A stretch of DNA of 64,000 bases from Candidatus Yanofskybacteria bacterium RIFCSPHIGHO2_01_FULL_43_32 (lineage in GTDB: Bacteria > Patescibacteriota > Minisyncoccia > 2-02-FULL-40-12 > GWA2-44-9). Positions within the stretch are counted from its first letter, which is position 1; every line of letters starts with the position of its first letter. This document shows, piece after piece, positions 324-63,362 of this stretch. The stretch lies in assembly GCA_001794125.1 (NCBI GenBank), contig MGJF01000002.1, forward strand, positions 236,514 to 300,513. Direction: 5' to 3'. Under the pieces are notes generated by a model. That model was given only the letters and a program-made list of their open reading frames with translations, was not told the DNA's origin and did not search any database. The translations under genes and the position numbers were made by a program.

Positions 324-326
324 TCC

Positions 327-366
327 TAATAATCAACGGCTCACATGTGTGAGCCGTTGATTATTA
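327..366. repeat. Perfect 19-bp inverted repeat hairpin (taataatcaacggctcaca tg tgtgagccgttgattatta); possible rpsI terminator; half-site gtgagccgttgatt recurs at 19477-19490
   Basis: read directly; no T-tract follows. Confidence 0.5.
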
Positions 367-412
367 GGCGGAAGAATGGGAGTTTGACCTCCGCCTCAAA
401 TTCTCGTAAGGT

Positions 413-14113: not shown

Positions 14114-15355
14114 ATGACAAAAACAAAACAAATATTAATTATAAACATAATTGTTTCCCTCGCTTTAGGCTTTACGGGCGGTTTCTTGTTTAAAGATTTT
14201 GGCAGCGGAAATTCCGTGGCGGCGATTAAGCAACTGATAAACCTCGACAACGGCAAACCGGAAGATGTTGATTTTTCTCTTTTTTGGAAGGTATATAACG
14301 ACCTTGGCGCCAAATATGTTGATAAAGGGAAAGTAGACCCTCAAAAAATTCTTTACGGGGCCATAAACGGGCTGGTCAACAGCGTCGGCGACCCCTATAC
14401 TGTTTTTTTTGAGCCGGTCACAAGCAAGAAATTCCAGGAAGAAATATCCGGAAGTTTTGGCGGCGTCGGAATTGAAATAGGAAAGAGAAACAACATCCTT
14501 ACCGTCATAGCTCCCCTTAAAGATACGCCTGCTTTCAAGGCGGGAATTAAAGCGGGAGATAAGATATTAAAAATAGACGCCAAACCAACCGCAAATTTGA
14601 CAATTGAAGAAGCTGTAAACTTGATAAGGGGCAAAAGGGGGACAAAAGTTGTCTTGACCATACAAAACAGCGCCACCAAAGACATTGAACTCATCAGAGA
14701 CGCCATAAAAATACCGACCATTGACTGGGAACTGATTGACAGTCCGCCAGCCGGCGGAGGCAAAAAGATCGCTTATATGCAAATATATTCCTTTAATCAA
14801 ACAGTGGATTCGGAATTCAAAAAAGCATCGGAAGAAATACTGAAATCCAATGCCGATAGATTAATAATCGACCTGCGAAACAACCCCGGAGGATTGTTGG
14901 ATTCGGCCATAAATTTGGCCGGCTGGTTTTTAGACAAAAACCAAATTGTGGTCAGCGAGGTATTCAGAGACGGAACGAGAAATGAATTCCGGAGCGATGG
15001 CGATGCTTTATTGAAAAAATACCCCACGGTTATCTTGATGAACGGCGGTTCCGCTTCGGCATCGGAAATCTTAGCCGGCGCCTTGCATGATAACCGGGGA
15101 ATTAAAATAATAGGGGAGAAAAGCTTCGGGAAAGGCTCGGTTCAAGAACTGGAGAAATATACTGACGGTTCTTCCTTGAAAGTAACCATCGCAAAATGGC
15201 TTACTCCGGCCGGAATTTCAATCTCTGACAAAGGCATAGAAGCCGACGTTGAGATTAAGTTCAAAGAAGAAGACCTCAAAGAAGAAGGCAAAATAGAAAT
15301 CGGTACTCCGGGCAAAGACCCTCAGTTAGATAAAGCGATCGAGATTGTAAGATAG
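14114..15355 (+). CDS. ctpA: Carboxyl-terminal processing protease (S41, PDZ domain); carries in-frame PPAGGG palindromic insert
   Basis: PDZ GGVGIEIG...GIKAGDKILKIDAKP and S41 NGGSASASEILAGAL. Confidence 0.85.
   Translation: MTKTKQILIINIIVSLALGFTGGFLFKDFGSGNSVAAIKQLINLDNGKPEDVDFSLFWKVYNDLGAKYVDKGKVDPQKILYGAINGLVNSVGDPYTVFFEPVTSKKFQEEISGSFGGVGIEIGKRNNILTVIAPLKDTPAFKAGIKAGDKILKIDAKPTANLTIEEAVNLIRGKRGTKVVLTIQNSATKDIELIRDAIKIPTIDWELIDSPPAGGGKKIAYMQIYSFNQTVDSEFKKASEEILKSNADRLIIDLRNNPGGLLDSAINLAGWFLDKNQIVVSEVFRDGTRNEFRSDGDALLKKYPTVILMNGGSASASEILAGALHDNRGIKIIGEKSFGKGSVQELEKYTDGSSLKVTIAKWLTPAGISISDKGIEADVEIKFKEEDLKEEGKIEIGTPGKDPQLDKAIEIVR
14743..14758. repeat. 16-bp palindrome TCCGCCAGCCGGCGGA, copy 1 (in ctpA, encodes PPAGG)
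   Basis: exact string. Confidence 0.8.
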
Positions 15356-19348: not shown

Positions 19349-19468
19349 ACACAACCTCCATGCATGACTGCGGGGTGCACTTTTTAAAAATTTACTAATT
19401 TTAAAAAAGCACACCCCCTCCGCCGGTTGTTTAGAGTATAGCTGATAATTAACAATAAAGAGTCAAAC
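19349..19468 (-). repeat. Structured repeat family 3, copy L (promoter-like TTGACT-N19-TATACT, AACAACCGGCGGAGGG, stem, CATGCATGGAGGTTGTGT); inverted relative to copy R
   Basis: aligned by eye to 21181-21301 and 50381-50559. Confidence 0.6.
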
Positions 19469-19515
19469 CATCTCTGGTGAGCCGTTGATTGTTGGTATGA
19501 AAGTTATGCCTTGCA

Positions 19516-21180: not shown

Positions 21181-21301
21181 GTTTGACTTTCTATTGCCAA
21201 TCGTCACTCATTAACCAAAACAACCGGCGGAGGGAGCATGCTTTTATAAAATCAGCAGTATTTTAGAAAAGTATGCTCCGCAGCATGCATGGAGGTTGTG
21301 T
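21181..21301 (+). repeat. Structured repeat family 3, copy R
   Basis: GTTTGACTttctattgccaatc...AACAACCGGCGGAGGGAGCATGC...GTATGCTCCGCAGCATGCATGGAGGTTGTGT. Confidence 0.6.
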
Positions 21302-46159: not shown

Positions 46160-47551
46160 ATGAAAATATTTAACACTCTAACAAAACAGCTTGAACCGCT
46201 TCCCTCGCCTGACGAGCAAAAAAAACTCAATATGTTTGTCTGCGGTCCGACGGTCTATGACTATATTCATATCGGCAACGCAAGAACGTTTGTCATGTTT
46301 GATGTTGTTGCTAAATACCTGCGCTACCGCGGTTATGACGTAAATTATATCCAGAATATCACTGATATTGATAATAAAATTATTGAAAGAGCGCAGAAAG
46401 AAAATACTGACCCGCTGGAATACGCCAAAAAATACAGCGACTTTTTCAAACAAGACATGCTGGCGCTTGGCGTCACCTCTCCGGAATACAAAAACGCCGT
46501 CGACCACATCCCCGAAGTAATTAAACAGGTCCGGACATTATTGGACAAAGGCAATGCTTATGTAATCGAGAACGACGGCATATATTTTGACCTGTCCACT
46601 TTCCCCGACTACGGCAAACTATCAGGCAGAACCGCCAGCATGGCTGATGACGCCGTTTCCCGTATAGACGACAGCGACAGGAAGCGCAATCGCGGAGATT
46701 TTGCCCTTTGGAAGTTCGGCCGACCAGGCGACCCTTCCTGGCCGGCGCCCTTCGGCGCCGGCAGGCCGGGCTGGCATATTGAAGACACCGCCATTACCGA
46801 AAAATACTTCGGCCCGCAATACGACATCCACGGCGGAGGACAAGATTTGATATTCCCCCACCACGAAGCCGAGATTGCCCAGCAAGAGTCGGCATCAGGT
46901 TTAAAACCATTCGTTAAATATTGGATGCACAGCGGATTTTTGATTAATAAAGAATCAAAAATGTCTAAATCGCTTGGTAATTTTACAACGCTCCATGAAG
47001 CCCTGAAAAAATATGGTCCAAAAAATTTAAGGCTGTATTTGTTGTCAGCCCATTACAGATCGCCGCTTGCTTTAGATGAAAACGGACTGACTTCGGCAAT
47101 CGTAAGCAACGCGGGGGTTTATGCTTTTGAAGAACGCCTCGAGTTGGTTAGAAAATCAAAAAAAACATCTGATGACGGGGCGAATAAAATAATTGACGAG
47201 GCTGTTCAGGGTTTTGAAGATAGTTTAGACAATGACTTCAATACGCCGAAAGCATTAGCTTCATTTTTTACCTCCATTAATAAGTTTTTTATGCTCTTTA
47301 ATAAAGGAGGGTTGGGTTTGAATGATGTTCTTAAAATAGAAGAATATTTGAAAACAGTTAATAATATCTTGGGTATTATTAACCAACCTAAAATAAAAAT
47401 CCCGGAAGAGATAGTGAAAAAGGTTGAAGAAAGAGAAGTTGTAAGAAAAAATAAAGAGTGGGTCAAATCAGACGAATTGCGGCAAGAAATAGAAAATTTA
47501 GGATTTGATATTGACGATACCCCATACGGCCCTCTCGTTTCTGAAAAATAA
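46160..47551 (+). CDS. cysS: Cysteinyl-tRNA synthetase
   Basis: CGPTVYDYIHIGNARTF HIGH region, KMSKSLGN. Confidence 0.9.
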   Translation: MKIFNTLTKQLEPLPSPDEQKKLNMFVCGPTVYDYIHIGNARTFVMFDVVAKYLRYRGYDVNYIQNITDIDNKIIERAQKENTDPLEYAKKYSDFFKQDMLALGVTSPEYKNAVDHIPEVIKQVRTLLDKGNAYVIENDGIYFDLSTFPDYGKLSGRTASMADDAVSRIDDSDRKRNRGDFALWKFGRPGDPSWPAPFGAGRPGWHIEDTAITEKYFGPQYDIHGGGQDLIFPHHEAEIAQQESASGLKPFVKYWMHSGFLINKESKMSKSLGNFTTLHEALKKYGPKNLRLYLLSAHYRSPLALDENGLTSAIVSNAGVYAFEERLELVRKSKKTSDDGANKIIDEAVQGFEDSLDNDFNTPKALASFFTSINKFFMLFNKGGLGLNDVLKIEEYLKTVNNILGIINQPKIKIPEEIVKKVEEREVVRKNKEWVKSDELRQEIENLGFDIDDTPYGPLVSEK

Positions 47552-49380: not shown

Positions 49381-49986
49381 ATGAATACCAAGTTTAAAGA
49401 CATCGTAAAATTATTTCAGAAACTCCCCGGCGTAGGACCGAGACAGGCAGCCAGATTTGTCATTGCTCTAATGGACAAACCGGAAGAAGAACTTCGTGAA
49501 TTCGGCAAAGCCGTAGCGAATTTGCGCAAGGAAATATCTTTTTGTCCTGTCTGCTTTAATATATCCGATAACGGTCTTTGTTCGGTGTGTTTAGACGGCA
49601 AAAGAGACCAGGCGAAACTATTGGTGGTAGAGAAAGTTACAGACTTGGATTCCATTGAACGGACAGGACTTTATAAAGGCCTTTACCACGTTCTTGGCGG
49701 AGCGATAAATCCTCTGGACGGCCTTACTCCCGAAACGCTTCGTTTAAAAGAACTTGCAGAACGCATAGGCAAGCTGGGAGACAAAAACATAGAACTTATC
49801 ATCGCCACTAATCCCAACACCGCCGGCGAAACAACTTCCCACTATATCCGAGAGGTTTTCGGCTCCGCCAGCTGGCGGAAAAAAGGGGTCTACCTGACCC
49901 GCCTCGCCCGAGGCCTTTCCTCCGGCTCAAATTTAGAATACACGGACGAGATAACACTGAAGAATGCGTTGGATTATAGGAAATAG
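49381..49986 (+). CDS. recR: Recombination protein RecR
   Basis: HhH LPGVGPRQAARF, C4 zinc finger CPVC...CSVC, Toprim. Confidence 0.9.
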   Translation: MNTKFKDIVKLFQKLPGVGPRQAARFVIALMDKPEEELREFGKAVANLRKEISFCPVCFNISDNGLCSVCLDGKRDQAKLLVVEKVTDLDSIERTGLYKGLYHVLGGAINPLDGLTPETLRLKELAERIGKLGDKNIELIIATNPNTAGETTSHYIREVFGSASWRKKGVYLTRLARGLSSGSNLEYTDEITLKNALDYRK

Positions 49987-50380: not shown

Positions 50381-50559
50381 CTTTGAACCTCTATTGCCAA
50401 TCACCACCTATTCACCAAGGCAACTGGCGGAGGGAGACGCCTTTATCCCAAAGAAGAACGTTCGCAGACGGGTAGCCGAGATAGAGCAAAAACCCGGCAG
50501 GGTTTTATGCGGTCTTCGTGGGATGAGGGCGTCTCCTTCCGTACGCGTAGAGGTTGTGT
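50381..50559 (+). repeat. Structured repeat family 3, solo copy 3 (longer central stem GGAGGGAGACGCC...GGCGTCTCCTTCC)
   Basis: CTTTGAACctctattgccaatc...CAACTGGCGGAGGGAG...GTAGAGGTTGTGT; followed by terminator 50571-50603. Confidence 0.55.
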
Positions 50560-52188: not shown

Positions 52189-52443
52189 TCAAATAATGGG
52201 TTTACCGAATTTAATAAGATTTAATTTTTTCTCGCGCCGCCATCCTTTGATTTGTGCCTCTCTTTTTAAAGCCCCGGATACACTATTATACTTTTCGGCA
52301 TATAAAACTTTCACGACTTTTCTTGCTCGTGTATAACGGGCGCCCTTACCAGCTTGGTGCTCAAGAAACCTTCTCTCAACATCTTTCGCAATACCAGCAT
52401 AAAACGTACCATCCCCACATTGAATAAGGTATACAAAATACAT
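52189..52443 (-). CDS. GIY-YIG nuclease family protein (URI domain, 84 aa)
   Basis: YFVYLIQCGDGTFYAGIAKDVERRFLEHQAG ... YTRA. Confidence 0.7.
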   Translation of the reverse strand: MYFVYLIQCGDGTFYAGIAKDVERRFLEHQAGKGARYTRARKVVKVLYAEKYNSVSGALKREAQIKGWRREKKLNLIKFGKPII

Positions 52444-52528
52444 AAATTATTTTTTGAAGCGCCCTTCGATAAACTCAGGGCACTTCTCCGGCTCAGCTTG
52501 CACTGAGCCTGTCGAAGTGCAGCGCCAC

Positions 52529-52600
52529 GGAGAATCGAACTCCGCTTCCATGCTTGAGAAGCATGTGTCCTAACCGATAGACGATGGCGCCATATTTATA
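52529..52600 (-). tRNA. tRNA-Glu (anticodon CUC)
   Basis: cloverleaf folded by hand: acceptor GGCGCCA/TGGCGCT, D GTCT/GGAC, anticodon stem CATGC/GCATG loop TTCTCAA, T-arm CGGAG-TTCGATT-CTCCG; trailer hairpins 52487-52527. Confidence 0.75.
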
Positions 52601-52879: not shown

Positions 52880-52910
52880 AAAGCCCCAGAACATCGGGGC
52901 TTTTGTTTTA
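52880..52910. terminator. Terminator AAGCCCC agaacat cGGGGCTT TTGTTTTATTT (also serves convergent murF)
   Basis: GC stem plus T-run. Confidence 0.6.
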
Positions 52911-54218
52911 TTTAGAAAGCCACTTTTTACCCTGTCTGACCAGCAGGTCTTTTTTATTTCCTCCGCCGGCTGGCGGATCCGCCATTATTTCTTCCACTAT
53001 TTTTTCCATCCTCATTCCCTGCGAACCTTTTATCAAAATTAAATCCCCTTCTTTGATTAACTCTTTAACTTTCAATTTCGCTTCATCCGACGTATCAAAT
53101 CTATAAATATTTTCTCTGGGCATCTGATTGAAGGCCGAGTCAGCAATAAATTTCGCCCTTGAACCCACACAAACAAGCAAATCAACAAAACTTCCGGCCA
53201 CATTTCCCGCTTCTTTATGGGCATCTATCGTATATTTTCCCAACTCAAGCATATCTCCCAAAACAGCGACCCTCCGCGTTCCGGGTAAGTCCCGGAGTGT
53301 TTCCAACGCTAAATGTGTAGATAAAGGAGATGCATTATATGTGTCGTCTATGATTGTAGAGTTTTTGATTCCTTTCAGTATTTTCAATCTGCCTTTCGGT
53401 CCGTGATATTCAGAAATGGCCTCGCTTATATCAACCAAATTCATGTCGAAAATTGAACCGATCGCGGCCGCCGCGGCGGCGGCATATCCTTGGGATTTAC
53501 CCAAAGAACCGCTCAATTTAAATGGCACAAAACTATCATTATAATTTATTTTAAAACTCACTCCTTCTGGTCTCTCGTTAGAAATTAGAGATTGGAAATT
53601 AGAAATTTTAATATTTGCTCCCTCGCCAAACCCGAATGTAAGCACTTTTGCTTTTGTCCTTTCTTTCATTTCAAAAACAGCTAAATCGTCAAAGTTCAAA
53701 ACCGCGAAATCAGAGACCGAAAGCGCCTCGATAAGCCGGCCCTTCTCTTTGGCCACACCTTCAGGTCCGGAGAAATATTCTACATGAACCGGCACTTCCC
53801 CGACCGCGGTTACCACTCCGATATGAGGTTTGAACTTGGCGGCTAATCGCTTTATGTCGCCCGGCTTATCCGCTCCGTATTCTAACACTAAAATCTCCGG
53901 ATAATTTTTTTGAAAAAACAGGCCACAAAAAGAAACCGCCAAAACTCTGATCCAAAAAAACAAAGTATTCTCCGCTTCATAATATTCATCGGCCCAATTG
54001 CCCACGATGGTCAGCGGCACGCCGAATTCGTTGTTAAGATTGCCCTTTCCGGATCTGACTCTTTTTGACCTCGCCAACACAGCCGAAATCGCTTCTTTGG
54101 TTGATGTCTTGCCGACATTTCCGGTAATAGCGATAATTTGCGGTTTATAGCGCCTTAAATACATTTTGGCGATTATGTCGAGTTTCCAGACGATTATTTT
54201 TTTAATAAAGTTTTTCAT
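52908..54218 (-). CDS. murF: UDP-N-acetylmuramoyl-tripeptide--D-alanyl-D-alanine ligase; C-terminal PPAGGG palindromic extension
   Basis: IAITGNVGKTSTKE P-loop and NLNNEFGVPLT MurF hallmark. Confidence 0.8.
   Translation of the reverse strand: MKNFIKKIIVWKLDIIAKMYLRRYKPQIIAITGNVGKTSTKEAISAVLARSKRVRSGKGNLNNEFGVPLTIVGNWADEYYEAENTLFFWIRVLAVSFCGLFFQKNYPEILVLEYGADKPGDIKRLAAKFKPHIGVVTAVGEVPVHVEYFSGPEGVAKEKGRLIEALSVSDFAVLNFDDLAVFEMKERTKAKVLTFGFGEGANIKISNFQSLISNERPEGVSFKINYNDSFVPFKLSGSLGKSQGYAAAAAAAIGSIFDMNLVDISEAISEYHGPKGRLKILKGIKNSTIIDDTYNASPLSTHLALETLRDLPGTRRVAVLGDMLELGKYTIDAHKEAGNVAGSFVDLLVCVGSRAKFIADSAFNQMPRENIYRFDTSDEAKLKVKELIKEGDLILIKGSQGMRMEKIVEEIMADPPAGGGNKKDLLVRQGKKWLSK
52962..52977. repeat. 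16-bp palindrome copy 2 (in murF, encodes PPAGG; adjacent second palindrome TGGCGGATCCGCCA)
   Basis: exact string (reverse complement). Confidence 0.8.
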
Positions 54219-56537: not shown

Positions 56538-56553
56538 TCCGCCAGCCGGCGGA
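56538..56553. repeat. 16-bp palindrome copy 3 (9 nt after rsmH stop, would read NPPAGGE in rsmH frame)
   Basis: exact string. Confidence 0.8.
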
Positions 56554-56561
56554 TTGACGCT

Positions 56562-57431
56562 TCAAACCTTCTGTGCAACCTTCATCTTTGCACTCCTGCT
56601 TCGCGGATTTGTCCTCTGTTCTTCCCAGCTCGGCCTTATCGTTCCTTTTACCGCTAATTTTATGGCTCCGGCTTTCACATTCTCTTTAAATACTTCCTTC
56701 ACCGTCTTGTCTTCCAACCCCTGAAACGATATCACCGCCAATCTTCCGCCCGGTTTTAACACCTCTATCGCCGCCTGAACGCCCTTTCGGACGTTTCCCA
56801 ATTCGTCGTTCACTTTCACCCTTAACGCCTGGAATGTCTTGGTCGCGAAGTTTATTTTCTGTTGCTTGTACCATTCTGGAACCGACCGGCTGATAACATT
56901 TACAAGGTCCTCGGTCATAATAATCGGCTTTTCACGCCTCGCTCTGACAATGTTCTTGGCTATATTTCCGGCAAACTGTTCTTCGCCCAGATAACTTATT
57001 AATTCCCTCAATTCGTCTTCGCTGTATTTATTCACGATATCAACGGCGCTTTCGGGCTGGATTTCGGGATTAAACCTCATGTCCAGTATTTCATTTCTCT
57101 TGAAAGAAAATCCCCTGCCGCTTTCTTCGTAATGCCATGACGACAATCCAAGATCAAACAATATTCCGTCCGGTTTAAATTTGTAATCTTTAACTATGTT
57201 TTTTAAATTTACATAACTATCATTAATTTTTATCAACCTATCGTCATTCAACTGCAAGCTTTTAAACAACGTGGGGTCAAATTCTATGCCCAGGATCTTT
57301 ACCTCGGGATATTTTTCAAGGATTGCCCTCGTGTGCCCCCCTCCGTCGAGAGTGGCATCTATAATGTTGCTGTTCTTTCCTATGTTTAAATATTCAATCG
57401 CTTCTTTTAATAAAACGGGGGTATGCGCCAT
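56562..57431 (-). CDS. rsmH: 16S rRNA (cytosine1402-N4)-methyltransferase
   Basis: MAHTPVLLKEAIEYL ... DATLDGGGHTRAIL. Confidence 0.9.
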   Translation of the reverse strand: MAHTPVLLKEAIEYLNIGKNSNIIDATLDGGGHTRAILEKYPEVKILGIEFDPTLFKSLQLNDDRLIKINDSYVNLKNIVKDYKFKPDGILFDLGLSSWHYEESGRGFSFKRNEILDMRFNPEIQPESAVDIVNKYSEDELRELISYLGEEQFAGNIAKNIVRARREKPIIMTEDLVNVISRSVPEWYKQQKINFATKTFQALRVKVNDELGNVRKGVQAAIEVLKPGGRLAVISFQGLEDKTVKEVFKENVKAGAIKLAVKGTIRPSWEEQRTNPRSRSAKMKVAQKV

Positions 57432-58127: not shown

Positions 58128-58307
58128 GAAGTCATCACCGCAATCGCCGAATTTTTGAAGAAAGCGGTTTATTACCTCCTCGGTAACCGGCGCCGGAGGC
58201 GCCGGTCAGAGTCAGGATCACACATCCCTCTTTTTCAATGAACAGCTGGTGTTTTTATAACACATCTGATATCCTTGGAACAAGTTTTTTTAAATCAAGG
58301 AGAAATT

Positions 58308-62837: not shown

Positions 62838-63362
62838 TTAAGCTCCGACCTGTTTCTTTTTAACTATTTCGCTTAAAACCATTGCTAATCCGGAAACCGG
62901 ATATTTCATCATTCCGAACAATCTTGCCAGCAATATTTCTCTGGACGGCATCTTGGCCATTTCTAAAAATTTTTCTTTGTCCATGAAATGGCTTTCAAAA
63001 ATAGCTCCGAAAAACTGGAGGGCCTTATTTTTCTTGGCAAATTCGTAAAGTTTCTTGGAAATCGCATAAACATCCCCGCTTCCTAAAACTAATCCGACAG
63101 AACCTTCCATGTTGTAGACATCAACGCCCTCTCCGCCAGCTGGCGGATTTGATTCTTTCAAAACCAAATCCATCAAGGTTTTTTTGGTTACAAAGTATTC
63201 GGCATCCATGGTTCTCAATGCCTTTTTTAATTCCGACATCTGGGCCACAGACAAGCCTTTCTCGCCCGCTCTTGAGAAGGTGGTAAATACCGTTATTTTG
63301 GACTTCGGAAGTTTGGTTTTTAGCTTCTTTAGTTCCGTTGATTTTTGGGTTTTGCTTTTCAT
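62838..63362 (-). CDS. rplJ: 50S ribosomal protein L10; contains in-frame NPPAGGE palindromic insert
   Basis: position upstream of rplL and L10 N-terminal fold. Confidence 0.85.
   Translation of the reverse strand: MKSKTQKSTELKKLKTKLPKSKITVFTTFSRAGEKGLSVAQMSELKKALRTMDAEYFVTKKTLMDLVLKESNPPAGGEGVDVYNMEGSVGLVLGSGDVYAISKKLYEFAKKNKALQFFGAIFESHFMDKEKFLEMAKMPSREILLARLFGMMKYPVSGLAMVLSEIVKKKQVGA
63132..63147. repeat. 16-bp perfect palindrome TCCGCCAGCTGGCGGA copy 4 (in rplJ, encodes PPAGG)
   Basis: exact string. Confidence 0.8.

What the first reader, a model, noticed from the sequence alone, without database searches (positions are those of the whole stretch)
14743..14758. 16-bp GC-rich palindrome TCCGCCAGCYGGCGGA inserted in frame into three unrelated genes, always encoding PPAGG
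- **Occurrences.** The same 16-mer occurs at 14743 (ctpA, giving DSPPAGGGKK between conserved S41 segments), at 52962 (C-terminal tail of murF, MADPPAGGGNKK, abutting a second palindrome TGGCGGATCCGCCA) and at 63132 (rplJ, NPPAGGE; this copy is a perfect palindrome). A fourth copy sits at 56538, 9 nt after the rsmH stop, where it would again read NPPAGGE in the rsmH frame.
- **Why it stands out.** The genome is AT-rich, so four copies of a 16-bp GC palindrome are not expected by chance. The in-frame, length-preserving placement resembles Rickettsia palindromic elements that insert into ORFs.
- **Related motifs.** The half-site CAGCYGGCGGAG resembles the AACAACCGGCGGAGGG box of repeat family 3. 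ACCGGCGCCggaGGCGCCGGT at 58176-58200 is a related GC palindrome in the mraZ-HAD intergenic region.
Basis: seen in the sequence. Interest (0 to 1): 0.7.

Follow-up and report, generated by a model that had tools for sequence, protein, structure and literature searches.

The report
Tiny GC hairpin inserted into genes
A 16-base GC-rich palindrome (TCCGCC-NNNN-GGCGGA) has been inserted five times in this small groundwater bacterium's DNA, four times inside essential genes, where it adds a short tolerated loop to the protein. The same mini-hairpin occurs in unrelated bacterial phyla, so it looks like an undescribed, extremely small selfish DNA element.

Summary
TCCGCCRGCYGGCGGA occurs at five sites in the window, not four; about 1e-5 are expected by chance.

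- **Missed copy:** the fifth site lies in recR and is read as SASWR, so "always PPAGG" is wrong.
- **Insertions:** alignments of L10, RecR, CtpA and MurF show lineage-specific insertions. In each, about 4 nt of the empty allele are replaced by the 16-mer, a net gain of 12 nt or 4 aa. Older copies decay by point mutation.
- **Distribution:** the same hairpin occurs in many low-GC genomes of Patescibacteria, Bacteroidota and other phyla, mostly in non-coding DNA.
    - Contexts include tips of CGTC-tagged REPs, RNase P RNA helices P3 and P12, and truncated tRNA copies.
    - Inside genes the PPAGG frame dominates (22 of 32, p = 5e-5). Selection for a tolerated loop peptide explains this best.
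- **Population variant:** one variant is identical to the window over 3.7 kb but lacks the recR copy. It carries 7 mostly synonymous changes in the adjacent 34 nt, a short gene-conversion tract.
- **Neighbours:** the 16-mers are enriched next to small GIY-YIG nuclease genes and tRNA genes.

Best reading: a non-autonomous selfish mini-palindrome whose mobilising enzyme is unknown, with GIY-YIG as a candidate. It fails the REP/RAYT and RPE membership tests, and I found no published description.

The parts
14743..14758 (+). 16-mer TCCGCCAGCCGGCGGA inside ctpA (S41 peptidase, ORF 14114-15355 +). It is read as (D)S-PPAGG-G.
   Evidence: The orthologue in L138 (88% aa identity, 409 vs 413 aa) has GGAC at this position. 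About 11 of 120 homologues carry the insert.
49864..49879 (.). Perfect palindrome TCCGCCAGCTGGCGGA inside recR (ORF 49381-49986 +). It is read as SASWR.
   Evidence: The variant L136 is otherwise identical over 3.7 kb but has AATA here, plus 7 substitutions within 34 nt upstream. The site aligns to a 5-aa gap in a loop of solved RecR 3VDP.
52962..52977 (-). 16-mer (gene strand TCCGCCAGCCGGCGGA) in the C-terminal tail of murF (ORF 52908-54218 -). It is read as D-PPAGG-G.
   Evidence: Empty alleles are L135 (GCC), L152 (ACCG) and L170 (GCCA). L131 shares the copy in decayed form (TCCGCCAGCTGGCAGA).
52970..52983 (.). Secondary 14-bp palindrome TGGCGGATCCGCCA, formed where the murF insert meets the pre-existing codons ATG GCG GA.
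   Evidence: Sequence. The empty allele ATGGCTGAGCCGGAA shows that the left part is native.
56538..56553 (-). 16-mer (gene strand TCCGCCGGCTGGCGGA) in non-coding DNA, 8 nt after the rsmH stop codon (rsmH 56562-57431 -). No T-run follows it, so it is not an intrinsic terminator.
   Evidence: It is absent downstream of rsmH in L131 and L135.
63132..63147 (.). Perfect palindrome TCCGCCAGCTGGCGGA inside rplJ (L10, ORF 62838-63362 -). It is read as N-PPAGG-E.
   Evidence: The empty allele in L131 has GGAT. Decayed copies are in L133 (TCGTCCGGCTGGCGGA) and L135 (TCCGTCGGCTGGCGGA).
52189..52443 (-). 84-aa stand-alone GIY-YIG nuclease gene just downstream of tRNA-Glu, 516 nt from the murF copy. It is a candidate trans-acting partner only; no link is shown in this window.
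   Evidence: Pfam PF01541, E = 4e-17. GIY-YIG ORFs lie within 170 nt of a 16-mer in 6 of 70 loci from other phyla.
52519..52591 (-). tRNA-Glu(CTC) lying between the murF copy and the GIY-YIG gene. It gives context for the tRNA association seen elsewhere.
   Evidence: 16-mers are 3.3-fold enriched within 500 nt of tRNA genes in other genomes.

Best explanation
The 16-mer is a discrete, non-autonomous, selfish palindromic DNA element. It has a 6-bp GC stem (TCCGCC/GGCGGA) and a 4-nt loop, usually AGCT.

**How it behaves**
- It is copied into new sites by a DNA-level process during repair or replication. A few target nucleotides are lost and the whole 16-nt unit is gained.
- It encodes nothing.
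- Inside genes only some insertions survive: those that keep the reading frame (16 minus 4 = +12 nt) and fall in surface loops or tails.
- Because the sequence is a palindrome, both orientations offer the same three frames. The Pro/Ala/Gly frame (PPAGG) is the best tolerated, so it predominates.
- After insertion the copies evolve neutrally and decay.
- They are also gained and lost between related strains by short-patch homologous recombination.

**Shown**
- Discreteness of the unit.
- Lineage-specific insertion.
- Net +12 nt in all four genes.
- Frame bias.
- Decay of older copies.
- One gene-conversion tract next to a copy.
- Presence across phyla.

**Inferred**
- Selfishness.
- The DNA-level copy mechanism.
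- The identity of the enzyme.
For: - **Non-random:** five copies where about 1e-5 are expected.
- **Lineage-specific insertions** in four proteins:
    - L10, alignment A1.
    - RecR, 29 filled and 91 empty among 120 homologues.
    - CtpA, about 11 of 120.
    - MurF.
- **Exact boundaries:** in every filled/empty pair the same 16-nt unit replaces a few nucleotides.
    - Coding sites: AATA, GGAT, GCCG, GGAC.
    - Non-coding sites: 8 nt in Mucilaginibacter REP copies and 3-11 nt in truncated tRNA copies. The +12 in genes is therefore a frame filter.
- **No target-site duplication**.
- **Decay:** copies in diverged lineages carry stem-breaking and non-synonymous changes.
- **Frame bias:** PPAGG in 22 of 32 ORF copies from other genomes, p = 4.5e-5.
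- **Permissive loops:** the same loop sites hold other, unrelated short insertions in other homologues. The recR site is a loop in solved RecR.
- **Recombination:** L136 equals the window over 3.7 kb except for the element and 7 changes in the adjacent 34 nt, 6 of them synonymous.
- **Wide occurrence:** 83 instances in 70 low-GC loci of Patescibacteria, Bacteroidota, Cloacimonadota, Elusimicrobia and others. AGCT is the loop in 63 of 86 low-GC copies (the 81 with full 12-nt flanks, counted once per distinct flank pair, plus the window's five), whereas chance hits in high-GC DNA spread almost evenly over the four RGCY loops, with GGCC rarest.
Against: - No mobilising enzyme and no insertion intermediate were identified.
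- 16 bp is far shorter than any element known to transpose.
- The identical sequence in different phyla is hard to explain for a purely selfish repeat without a shared enzyme or horizontal transfer.
- All five window copies have intact stems, and the only variable positions are the two loop bases. This could mean they are very young, or that the hairpin is maintained by selection or by homogenisation.
- The same codon of recR and the same loop of L10 are occupied in several separated clades. That needs either target specificity or lateral allele spread, and neither is demonstrated.
- The genome-wide copy number of this MAG could not be counted.
Confidence: 0.6

Rival explanations
1. **Nuclease-driven version of the same idea.** The hairpin is the substrate or companion of small stand-alone GIY-YIG (YhbQ/Slx1-like) nucleases that form mobile cassettes next to tRNA genes. 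Breaks made by the nuclease are repaired by gene conversion or end joining, and this installs, spreads or removes the 16-mer in a homing-like way. Solo 16-mers would be the cassette's hairpin travelling without the gene.
For: - GIY-YIG ORFs (PF01541) lie within 170 nt of a 16-mer in 6 of 70 low-GC loci from different phyla.
- In L052 (Flavobacteriales) and L111 (Wolfebacteria) the ORF is bracketed by two 16-mers embedded in partial tRNA copies.
- Expected by chance: 0.2-0.9 16-mers, P = 5e-8 to 3e-4 for six loci.
- 16-mers are enriched near tRNA genes: 9 of 83 against 2.7 expected, P = 0.0005.
- The recR polymorphism is a short conversion tract that ends at the element.
- The window has a GIY-YIG gene beside tRNA-Glu, 516 nt from the murF copy.
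- Established knowledge: free-standing GIY-YIG homing endonucleases, such as the T4 Seg proteins, drive co-conversion of flanking DNA (abstracts of PMC2988022 and PMC2790892 listed; the details are from my own knowledge).
Against: - Of the four GIY-YIG loci not brought in by the genome or viral scans for the 16-mer (window, L170, L187, L198), none has a 16-mer within 200 nt.
- The six associated GIY-YIG proteins are only 20-47% identical to the window's.
- Both elements may simply accumulate in the same permissive tRNA-proximal or REP-rich DNA.
- GIY-YIG enzymes do not catalyse strand transfer.
- The ctpA, recR and rplJ copies are 3-38 kb from the only GIY-YIG gene in the window.
- An all-against-all comparison of ORFs of at least 100 aa found no other gene family shared by the flanks.
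Confidence: 0.22
2. **REP/RAYT membership.** The 16-mer is an ordinary member of the REP class, mobilised by a RAYT (Y1 HUH transposase).
For: - It is a GC-rich hairpin repeat.
- In other genomes it forms the tip of CGTC-tagged REPs (family definition in PMC3733652).
- Intragenic REPs are known, for example RPE-4 and RPE-6.
- Relatives L131 and L133 carry a RAYT-like Y1_Tnp gene about 4 kb from rplJ.
Against: - The window copies have no GTAG or CGTC tag.
- They have a 6-bp stem and 16-nt length, against 8-9-bp stems and 20-40 nt for REPs.
- Four of the five copies are intragenic.
- There is no Y1_Tnp homologue in the window.
- The Y1_Tnp genes of relatives are flanked by their own 44-46-bp palindromes (TGTAATGGGCATCTTTACA...). 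These are unrelated to the 16-mer and absent from the window.
- CGTC REPs are reported to lack a dedicated transposase.
Confidence: 0.06
3. **Functional motif.** The hairpin is a binding or processing site, as DNA (regulator, R-M enzyme or recombinase site) or as RNA (stability or processing hairpin), recruited wherever it is useful.
For: - The stem sequence is conserved across phyla while the loop varies: AGCT, AGCC, GGCT, GTT, ATCA, GACT.
- The hairpin is stable: -10 kcal/mol as RNA, -6 to -7 as DNA.
- It replaces helix tips in RNase P RNA.
- It is kept at the same place of a tRNA-like leader in Wolfebacteria (35% GC) and Kaiserbacteria (57% GC).
- All five window stems are intact.
Against: - Orthologous copies decay with stem-breaking changes.
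- Most orthologues do without it.
- The positions are unrelated loops of unrelated proteins.
- No T-run or promoter context is present in the window.
- There is no Rfam match.
- No R-M gene was seen among the ORFs scanned.
Confidence: 0.08
4. **Native coding sequence or chance.** PPAGG would be a conserved peptide that happens to be encoded by a palindrome.
For: GC-rich quasi-palindromes can be native. The cysS stretch at 46736-46775 encodes the conserved SWPxPxGxGRPGWH motif (plus my translation).
Against: - No matches in shuffles, and about 1e-5 expected.
- The segment is absent from most orthologues.
- The same DNA is read in another frame in recR.
- It also occurs in non-coding DNA.
Confidence: 0.01

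Closest known systems
Rickettsia palindromic elements (RPE), especially RPE-4 and RPE-6, which Di Nocera et al. 2013 class as CGTC-tagged REPs
   Same: - Palindromic repeats inserted in frame into unrelated, often essential genes.
- They add a tolerated peptide.
- They are absent from orthologues.
- They also occur in non-coding DNA and RNA genes.
- No dedicated transposase is known.
   Different: - The element here is only 16 bp with no tag, against 20-40 bp (tagged REPs, which include RPE-4 and RPE-6) up to roughly 100-150 bp (RPE-1, from my own knowledge).
- It is a perfect palindrome.
- It is found in several phyla and is not confined to one genus.
- No sequence comparison with RPE consensus sequences was possible here.
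REP / REPIN elements with RAYT transposases (GTAG class), and CGTC-tagged REPs
   Same: - A GC-rich hairpin repeat dispersed in many copies.
- In other genomes the 16-mer forms the tip of CGTC-tagged REP hairpins.
   Different: - No tag, a shorter stem, and mostly intragenic in this window.
- No RAYT was found in the window, and the RAYT-like genes of relatives have other flanking palindromes.
Mobile GC clusters and 'byp' elements of yeast mitochondrial genomes (from my own knowledge; a related paper, PMC4478555, was listed but not read)
   Same: - Short GC-rich hairpins that spread in an AT-richer genome and land inside protein-coding genes.
- The mechanism is unknown and thought to be linked to recombination.
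   Different: - Those are organellar and longer (about 30-50 nt).
- Byps are skipped by the ribosome. Here the reading frame runs straight through the element, so it is evidently translated.
HIP1 (GCGATCGC) of cyanobacteria and DNA uptake sequences (from my own knowledge)
   Same: A short over-represented motif, palindromic in the case of HIP1, that is also found inside genes.
   Different: - Those reach about one copy per kb.
- They arise by substitution within existing sequence.
- Here the copies are true insertions, at about one per 13 kb.
Free-standing GIY-YIG homing endonuclease genes (T4 Seg proteins, including SegB in the tRNA gene cluster; from my own knowledge)
   Same: - Small GIY-YIG genes beside tRNA genes.
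- Gene-conversion tracts at polymorphic sites.
   Different: - Cleavage specificity is unknown here.
- The 16-mer travels without the gene.
- The association is statistical and seen only in a subset of loci.

Membership tests
REP (GTAG- or CGTC-tagged; Di Nocera 2013) | An unpaired GTAG or CGTC tetranucleotide at one end of the hairpin | tested here: not met
   The flanks of the five window copies share only a C/G on one side. CGTCATTSCGA is not enriched in the window.
REP (GTAG- or CGTC-tagged; Di Nocera 2013) | Length 20-40 bp; CGTC class with stem 8-9 bp and loop 4-5 nt | tested here: not met
   16 nt in total, with a 6-bp stem and 4-nt loop.
REP (GTAG- or CGTC-tagged; Di Nocera 2013) | Predominantly extragenic, close to the 3' ends of genes | tested here: not met
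   Four of five window copies are inside ORFs. In other genomes 51 of 83 are non-coding.
REP/RAYT system | A cognate Y1 (RAYT) transposase gene flanked by the repeat | tested here: not met
   tblastn finds no Y1_Tnp in the window. The Y1_Tnp genes in L131 and L133 are flanked by unrelated 44-46-bp palindromes. The rest of the genome was not available.
Rickettsia palindromic elements | In-frame insertion into ORFs, absent from orthologues | tested here: met
Rickettsia palindromic elements | Sequence similarity to RPE consensus sequences, with lengths of tens to about 150 bp, in Rickettsiales | not tested
   No RPE consensus was available in the tools. The length (16 bp) and the host (Patescibacteria) differ.
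MITE | Terminal inverted repeats plus a target-site duplication; 50-500 bp | tested here: not met
   There is no duplication. Target nucleotides are lost (AATA, GGAT, GCCG, GGAC). The size is 16 bp.
Homing element (endonuclease-driven gene conversion) | Filled/empty polymorphism with co-conversion of flanking markers | tested here: inconclusive
   There is one clean case: recR in the window against L136, with 7 changes in 34 nt and 0 elsewhere in 3.7 kb. The closest relatives are filled, so parsimony suggests that this event was a loss.
Homing element (endonuclease-driven gene conversion) | A linked or trans-acting site-specific endonuclease | tested here: inconclusive
   GIY-YIG ORFs are adjacent in 6 of 70 loci, P = 3e-4 or lower. 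None of the four loci not brought in by the genome or viral scans for the 16-mer shows this. Cleavage cannot be tested here.
Restriction-modification recognition site or regulator operator | A cognate enzyme or regulator, plus methylation or binding at the site | not testable with these tools
   Ten large ORFs scanned are housekeeping genes. Decay of orthologous copies argues against a required site.
Known structured RNA family (Rfam) | A match to a curated covariance model | tested here: not met
   The only Rfam matches are tRNAs, 5S rRNA and RNase P RNA. None of them is a model of the hairpin.

The most novel reading that the evidence does not exclude
A 16-bp 'nano-element', the smallest mobile DNA unit so far, shared by Patescibacteria, Bacteroidota and other low-GC phyla. 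It would be installed, spread and erased at specific loop-coding sites, RNA helix tips and tRNA-gene loops. The process would be nuclease-triggered repair or gene conversion driven by small stand-alone GIY-YIG (YhbQ/Slx1-like) cassettes. This would also supply the missing mobilisation machinery for CGTC-tagged REPs.
Probability: 0.2. Interest if true: 0.85.

Novelty: new variant of a known kind. Interest (0 to 1): 0.68.

Why it matters
**If it is a real mobile unit**
- It pushes the lower size limit of selfish DNA to a single 16-nt hairpin.
- It shows that such an element can repeatedly remodel essential proteins (L10, RecR, MurF, CtpA) and structured RNAs (RNase P RNA, tRNA copies) in bacteria with minimal genomes.

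**What it makes testable**
- Cultured Bacteroidota such as Mucilaginibacter flavidus carry the same element. This gives a tractable handle on two open questions:
    - How tag-less and CGTC-type palindromic repeats move without a transposase.
    - What the very common stand-alone GIY-YIG genes of bacteria do.

**Practical use**
- The motif is a marker for strain-level recombination in groundwater Patescibacteria populations.
- It is also a caveat for annotation, because PPAGG, SASWR and RQLAE peptides in predicted proteins come from this hairpin.

Tried and rejected
- **Chance or composition:** rejected.
- **Assembly artefact:** rejected.
    - The same sites appear in independent NCBI, ENA, JGI and Logan assemblies.
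    - The element is also in isolate genomes.
- **RNA-level excision (mini-intron):** rejected. Removing 16 nt would shift the frame, whereas the conserved protein sequence continues in frame through the element.
- **RAYT link:** the Y1_Tnp genes of relatives have their own unrelated palindromes.
- **Target-site duplication or a conserved target motif:** none found. The flanks show only a weak preference for A on one side and G/C on the other.
- **Shared neighbouring gene among ORFs of at least 100 aa:** none. The GIY-YIG link appeared only after shorter ORFs were included.
- **Second hairpin family CCGGCGCC..GGCGCCGG:** the copy in cysS encodes a conserved motif and is native.
- **Kinship with the AACAACCGGCGGAGGG box:** the only shared part is GGCGGAG.
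- **Literature:** the exact sequence, PPAGG, and combinations of keywords for palindromic repeats, CPR bacteria, Bacteroidetes, GIY-YIG and YhbQ (COG2827) returned no description.
- **Searches that failed:**
    - A GIY-YIG alignment was too diverse for a locus scan.
    - tblastn against plasmids found nothing.
- **Recurrent independent insertion in recR:**
    - The protein tree scatters the filled alleles.
    - The L136 case shows that recombination can also remove or transfer the element, so the number of independent gains is unresolved.
Full report
**1. What is in the window**

TCCGCCRGCYGGCGGA occurs at five sites: 14743, 49864, 52962, 56538 and 63132. None of 100 dinucleotide-preserving shuffles gave a match, and base composition predicts about 1e-5 copies in 64 kb.
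- The window is about 42% GC.
- A k-mer census shows this is the only GC-rich 12-16-mer repeated three or more times.
- The hexamers TCCGCC and GGCGGA alone are not unusual: 72 observed against 59 expected. Only these five are arranged as TCCGCC-N4-GGCGGA.
- As a single strand the 16-mer folds into a 6-bp stem with a 4-nt loop. The energy is -6 to -7 kcal/mol as DNA and -10 kcal/mol as RNA.

Four copies lie inside ORFs:
- ctpA (14114-15355, +), read as DS-PPAGG-GKK.
- murF tail (52908-54218, -), read as AD-PPAGG-GNKK.
- rplJ (62838-63362, -), read as N-PPAGG-E.
- recR (49381-49986, +), read as G-SASWR-KK.

The fifth copy starts 8 nt after the rsmH stop codon. It has no T-run after it.

The source is Candidatus Yanofskybacteria RIFCSPLOWO2_02_FULL_43_10, a Patescibacteria MAG from the Rifle aquifer. 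The three copies that lie within the loci fetched around rplJ (rplJ, downstream of rsmH, and murF) are identical in independent assemblies from NCBI, ENA and JGI, and the rplJ copy also in Logan. They are therefore not assembly artefacts.

**2. They are insertions**

*L10*
- Most of the 120 closest homologues read ...LKE[LS]K-[SND]E... at this point.
- About a dozen read ...N-PPAGG-E....
- The empty allele in L131 is TCAAA-GGAT-GAAAAT. The filled allele is TCAAA-[16-mer]-GAGGGC.
- L133 and L135 carry decayed copies, TCGTCCGGCTGGCGGA and TCCGTCGGCTGGCGGA.

*RecR*
- 91 of 120 homologues read FGN-KKG and 29 read FG-SASWR-KKG or a decayed form such as SAGWR, SADWR, SANWR, SADWQ or STNWQ.
- The site aligns to a 5-residue gap in a loop of solved RecR 3VDP.

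*CtpA*
- EQ-GN-KK in most homologues against DS-PPAGG-GKK in about 11 of 120.
- L138 has GGAC at the site.

*MurF*
- The empty alleles in L135, L152 and L170 read GA-GCC(G)/ACCG/GCCA-GA.
- L131 shares a decayed copy.

In all four genes about 4 nt of the empty allele are replaced by the 16 nt, a net gain of 12 nt or 4 aa. No target-site duplication is present.

Non-coding pairs in other genomes lose other amounts, so the constant +12 in genes is a reading-frame filter:
- 8 nt in Mucilaginibacter REP copies: ACGA-AGCAACCT-CTACG becomes ACGA-[16-mer]-CTACG.
- 3 nt in a tRNA D-loop copy and 11 nt in a tRNA anticodon-arm copy.

The unit itself always has the same boundaries.

**3. Why PPAGG**

A palindrome offers the same three reading frames in either orientation: SASWR, PPAGG and RQLA(E/D).
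- Among copies from other genomes that lie in ORFs of at least 120 codons, 22 of 32 use the PPAGG frame (p = 4.5e-5).
- Several of the non-PPAGG cases sit just upstream of a start codon.
- In the PPAGG frame the two variable positions of the element, 7 and 10, are synonymous third-codon positions.
- The loops that carry the element also carry other, unrelated short insertions in other homologues.

**4. The element is not specific to this lineage**

- *Numbers.* 70 of the loci are below 50% GC and hold 83 copies.
- *Taxa.* Patescibacteria classes include Saccharibacteria, Shapirobacteria, Gottesmanbacteria, Curtissbacteria, Wolfebacteria, Kaiserbacteria, Harrisonbacteria and Campbellbacteria. 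There are also many Bacteroidota, including isolates such as Mucilaginibacter flavidus with three copies in 8 kb. Cloacimonadota, Elusimicrobia, Bdellovibrionales and low-GC 'Gammaproteobacteria' MAGs also appear.
- *Against chance.*
    - I estimate about 18 chance hits for roughly 200 Gb of low-GC DNA.
    - Several loci hold multiple copies: L040 has 4, and L101 and L070 have 3 each.
    - The loop is AGCT in 63 of 86 low-GC copies (the 81 with full 12-nt flanks, counted once per distinct flank pair, plus the window's five).
    - Presumed chance hits in high-GC viral contigs spread almost evenly over the four RGCY loops, with GGCC rarest.
    - Some single hits are probably still chance.
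- *Contexts.* 51 of the 83 are non-coding. The contexts are:
    - tips of CGTC-tagged REP hairpins, GTCATTSCGA-[16-mer]-GAGSAATC (family defined in PMC3733652);
    - both the P3 and P12 hairpins of a Cyclobacteriaceae RNase P RNA, and P12 in Hanamia;
    - truncated tRNA copies in which a loop segment is replaced by the 16-mer;
    - terminator-like extended palindromes.
- *Variants.* Related hairpins keep the stem but change the loop: GTT, ATCA, GACT, AAA, TAT.

**5. Dynamics**

Contig L136 (3.7 kb) is 100% identical to the window except in two respects:
- AATA stands in place of the recR 16-mer.
- There are seven substitutions, all within 34 nt upstream of the element. Six are synonymous, including a two-step CGA to AGG change.

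Clustered synonymous differences mark a patch imported from a diverged homologue, that is, short-patch gene conversion ending at the element. Error-prone repair would not give this pattern. The other close alleles (at least 90% aa identity: P0122, P0123, P0125-P0127) are filled. Parsimony therefore suggests that this event removed the element using an L140-like empty donor.

The L10 contig L137 is likewise mosaic. It has no mismatches from +100 nt onward and 10-20% divergence across and upstream of the site.

In a RecR tree with the insert masked, the filled alleles are scattered among empty ones. After the L136 result this can be explained by recurrent insertion, by lateral allele transfer or by recombinational loss. 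I cannot separate these.

**6. Search for a driver**

*RAYT*
- A RAYT-like Y1_Tnp gene sits near rplJ in relatives L131 and L133.
- It is flanked by its own 44-46-bp perfect palindromes. These are unrelated to the 16-mer and absent from the window.
- The window has no Y1_Tnp homologue.

*Neighbouring genes*
- No gene family of at least 100 aa recurs beside the 16-mers.
- When shorter ORFs were included, stand-alone GIY-YIG genes of about 85 aa (PF01541) appeared within 170 nt of a 16-mer in six loci from different phyla.
- In L052 (Flavobacteriales) and L111 (Wolfebacteria) the gene is bracketed by two 16-mers embedded in partial tRNA copies.
- By chance 0.2-0.9 16-mers would lie that close to a GIY-YIG gene (P = 5e-8 to 3e-4 for six loci).

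*tRNA genes*
- 16-mers are 3.3-fold enriched within 500 nt of tRNA genes (P = 0.0005).
- The window has such a GIY-YIG gene (52189-52443) next to tRNA-Glu, 516 nt from the murF copy.

*Caveats*
- The four GIY-YIG loci not brought in by the genome or viral scans for the 16-mer have no 16-mer nearby.
- The associated GIY-YIG proteins are diverse.
- Co-accumulation in permissive DNA is a live alternative.

I treat GIY-YIG as a candidate partner and not as a finding.

**7. Verdict**

- **Observation:** confirmed with corrections. There are five sites in four genes and the peptide is not always PPAGG.
- **Interpretation:** right that the sequence is inserted and behaves like an RPE. Wrong on exclusivity, on the related motifs, and on the R-M or regulator idea.
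- **Best explanation (confidence 0.6):** a discrete, non-autonomous, selfish 16-nt hairpin element.
    - It is copied in with loss of a few target bases.
    - It is filtered in genes by frame and loop tolerance.
    - It then decays neutrally and is shuffled by short-patch recombination.
    - The enzyme is unknown.
- **Membership:** it fails the tested REP/RAYT and MITE features, and matches RPEs only in behaviour, since no sequence comparison with RPEs was possible.
- **Novelty:** I found no published description. I class it as a new variant of a known kind, namely palindromic repeats that invade genes. It is unusual for its minimal size and its spread across phyla.

Noticed in passing
window 325-368 and 19477-19490: A perfect 44-bp palindrome, CCTAATAATCAACGGCTCACA..TGTGAGCCGTTGATTATTAGG, has a third half-copy 19 kb away. 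It is the same style as the long perfect palindromes that flank a RAYT-like gene in relatives.
   Followed up: partly
window 19416-19431 (-) and 21219-21234 (+): AACAACCGGCGGAGGG occurs as an exact inverted pair 1.8 kb apart, with a 3-mismatch copy at 50419. It shares only GGCGGAG with the 16-mer, and its role is unknown.
   Followed up: partly
window 58186-58206: A GC hairpin, ACCGGCGCC-GGA-GGCGCCGGT, lies in the mraZ/HAD divergent intergenic region. It has no sequence relation to the 16-mer.
   Followed up: partly
window 46736-46775 (cysS): A GC-rich quasi-palindrome encodes the conserved CysRS motif SWPxPxGxGRPGWH. It is native coding sequence, not an insert, and serves as a useful negative control.
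   Followed up: yes
L129 4274-4680 (Cyclobacteriaceae); L126 about 2824 (Hanamia): RNase P RNA (270 bits) has the identical 16-mer as both its P3 and P12 hairpins. A second Bacteroidota family has it at P12.
   Followed up: partly
L052 7289-7666; L111 2195-2524: A GIY-YIG ORF of about 85 aa is bracketed by two 16-mers. The 16-mers are embedded in partial copies of the adjacent tRNA (tRNA-Met anticodon/variable region; tRNA-Asn D-loop). In L052 the unit is tandemly repeated.
   Followed up: partly
L101 2270-4430 and 7013-7171; L077 6365-7094: GIY-YIG ORFs sit inside clusters of CGTC-tagged REP dimers. This is a REPtron-like arrangement for a REP class that is reported to lack a transposase.
   Followed up: no
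L131 4927-4971 and 5625-5670; L133 5568-5611 and 6288-6327: A RAYT-like Y1_Tnp gene is flanked on both sides by perfect 40-46-bp palindromes. It lies between a giant ORF and the TPR/YceG/rplJ cluster, and is absent at that position in the window's genome.
   Followed up: partly
L152 19774-19803, L153 17118-17147, L212 1479-1508: Two hairpins stand back to back: TCCGCC-AAA-GGCGGA then TCCGCC-TAT-GGCGGA (GGA and TTT loops in L212). They have the same stem as the 16-mer but 3-nt loops.
   Followed up: no
L10 and CtpA homologues (proteins P0001-P0120 and P0241-P0360): The loops that carry PPAGG hold other short lineage-specific insertions in other homologues, for example DDLPTQT, EGLPAQS, NPLRQGSSEAS and DGNPRTQRAEQSSY. 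These may come from other hairpin repeats.
   Followed up: no
window 52189-52443 vs L170 13616-13930: Two related Yanofskybacteria-like genomes both have a GIY-YIG gene at tRNA-Glu(CTC). The genes lie on opposite sides of the tRNA and are only about 33% identical, so this tRNA looks like a hotspot for such cassettes.
   Followed up: partly
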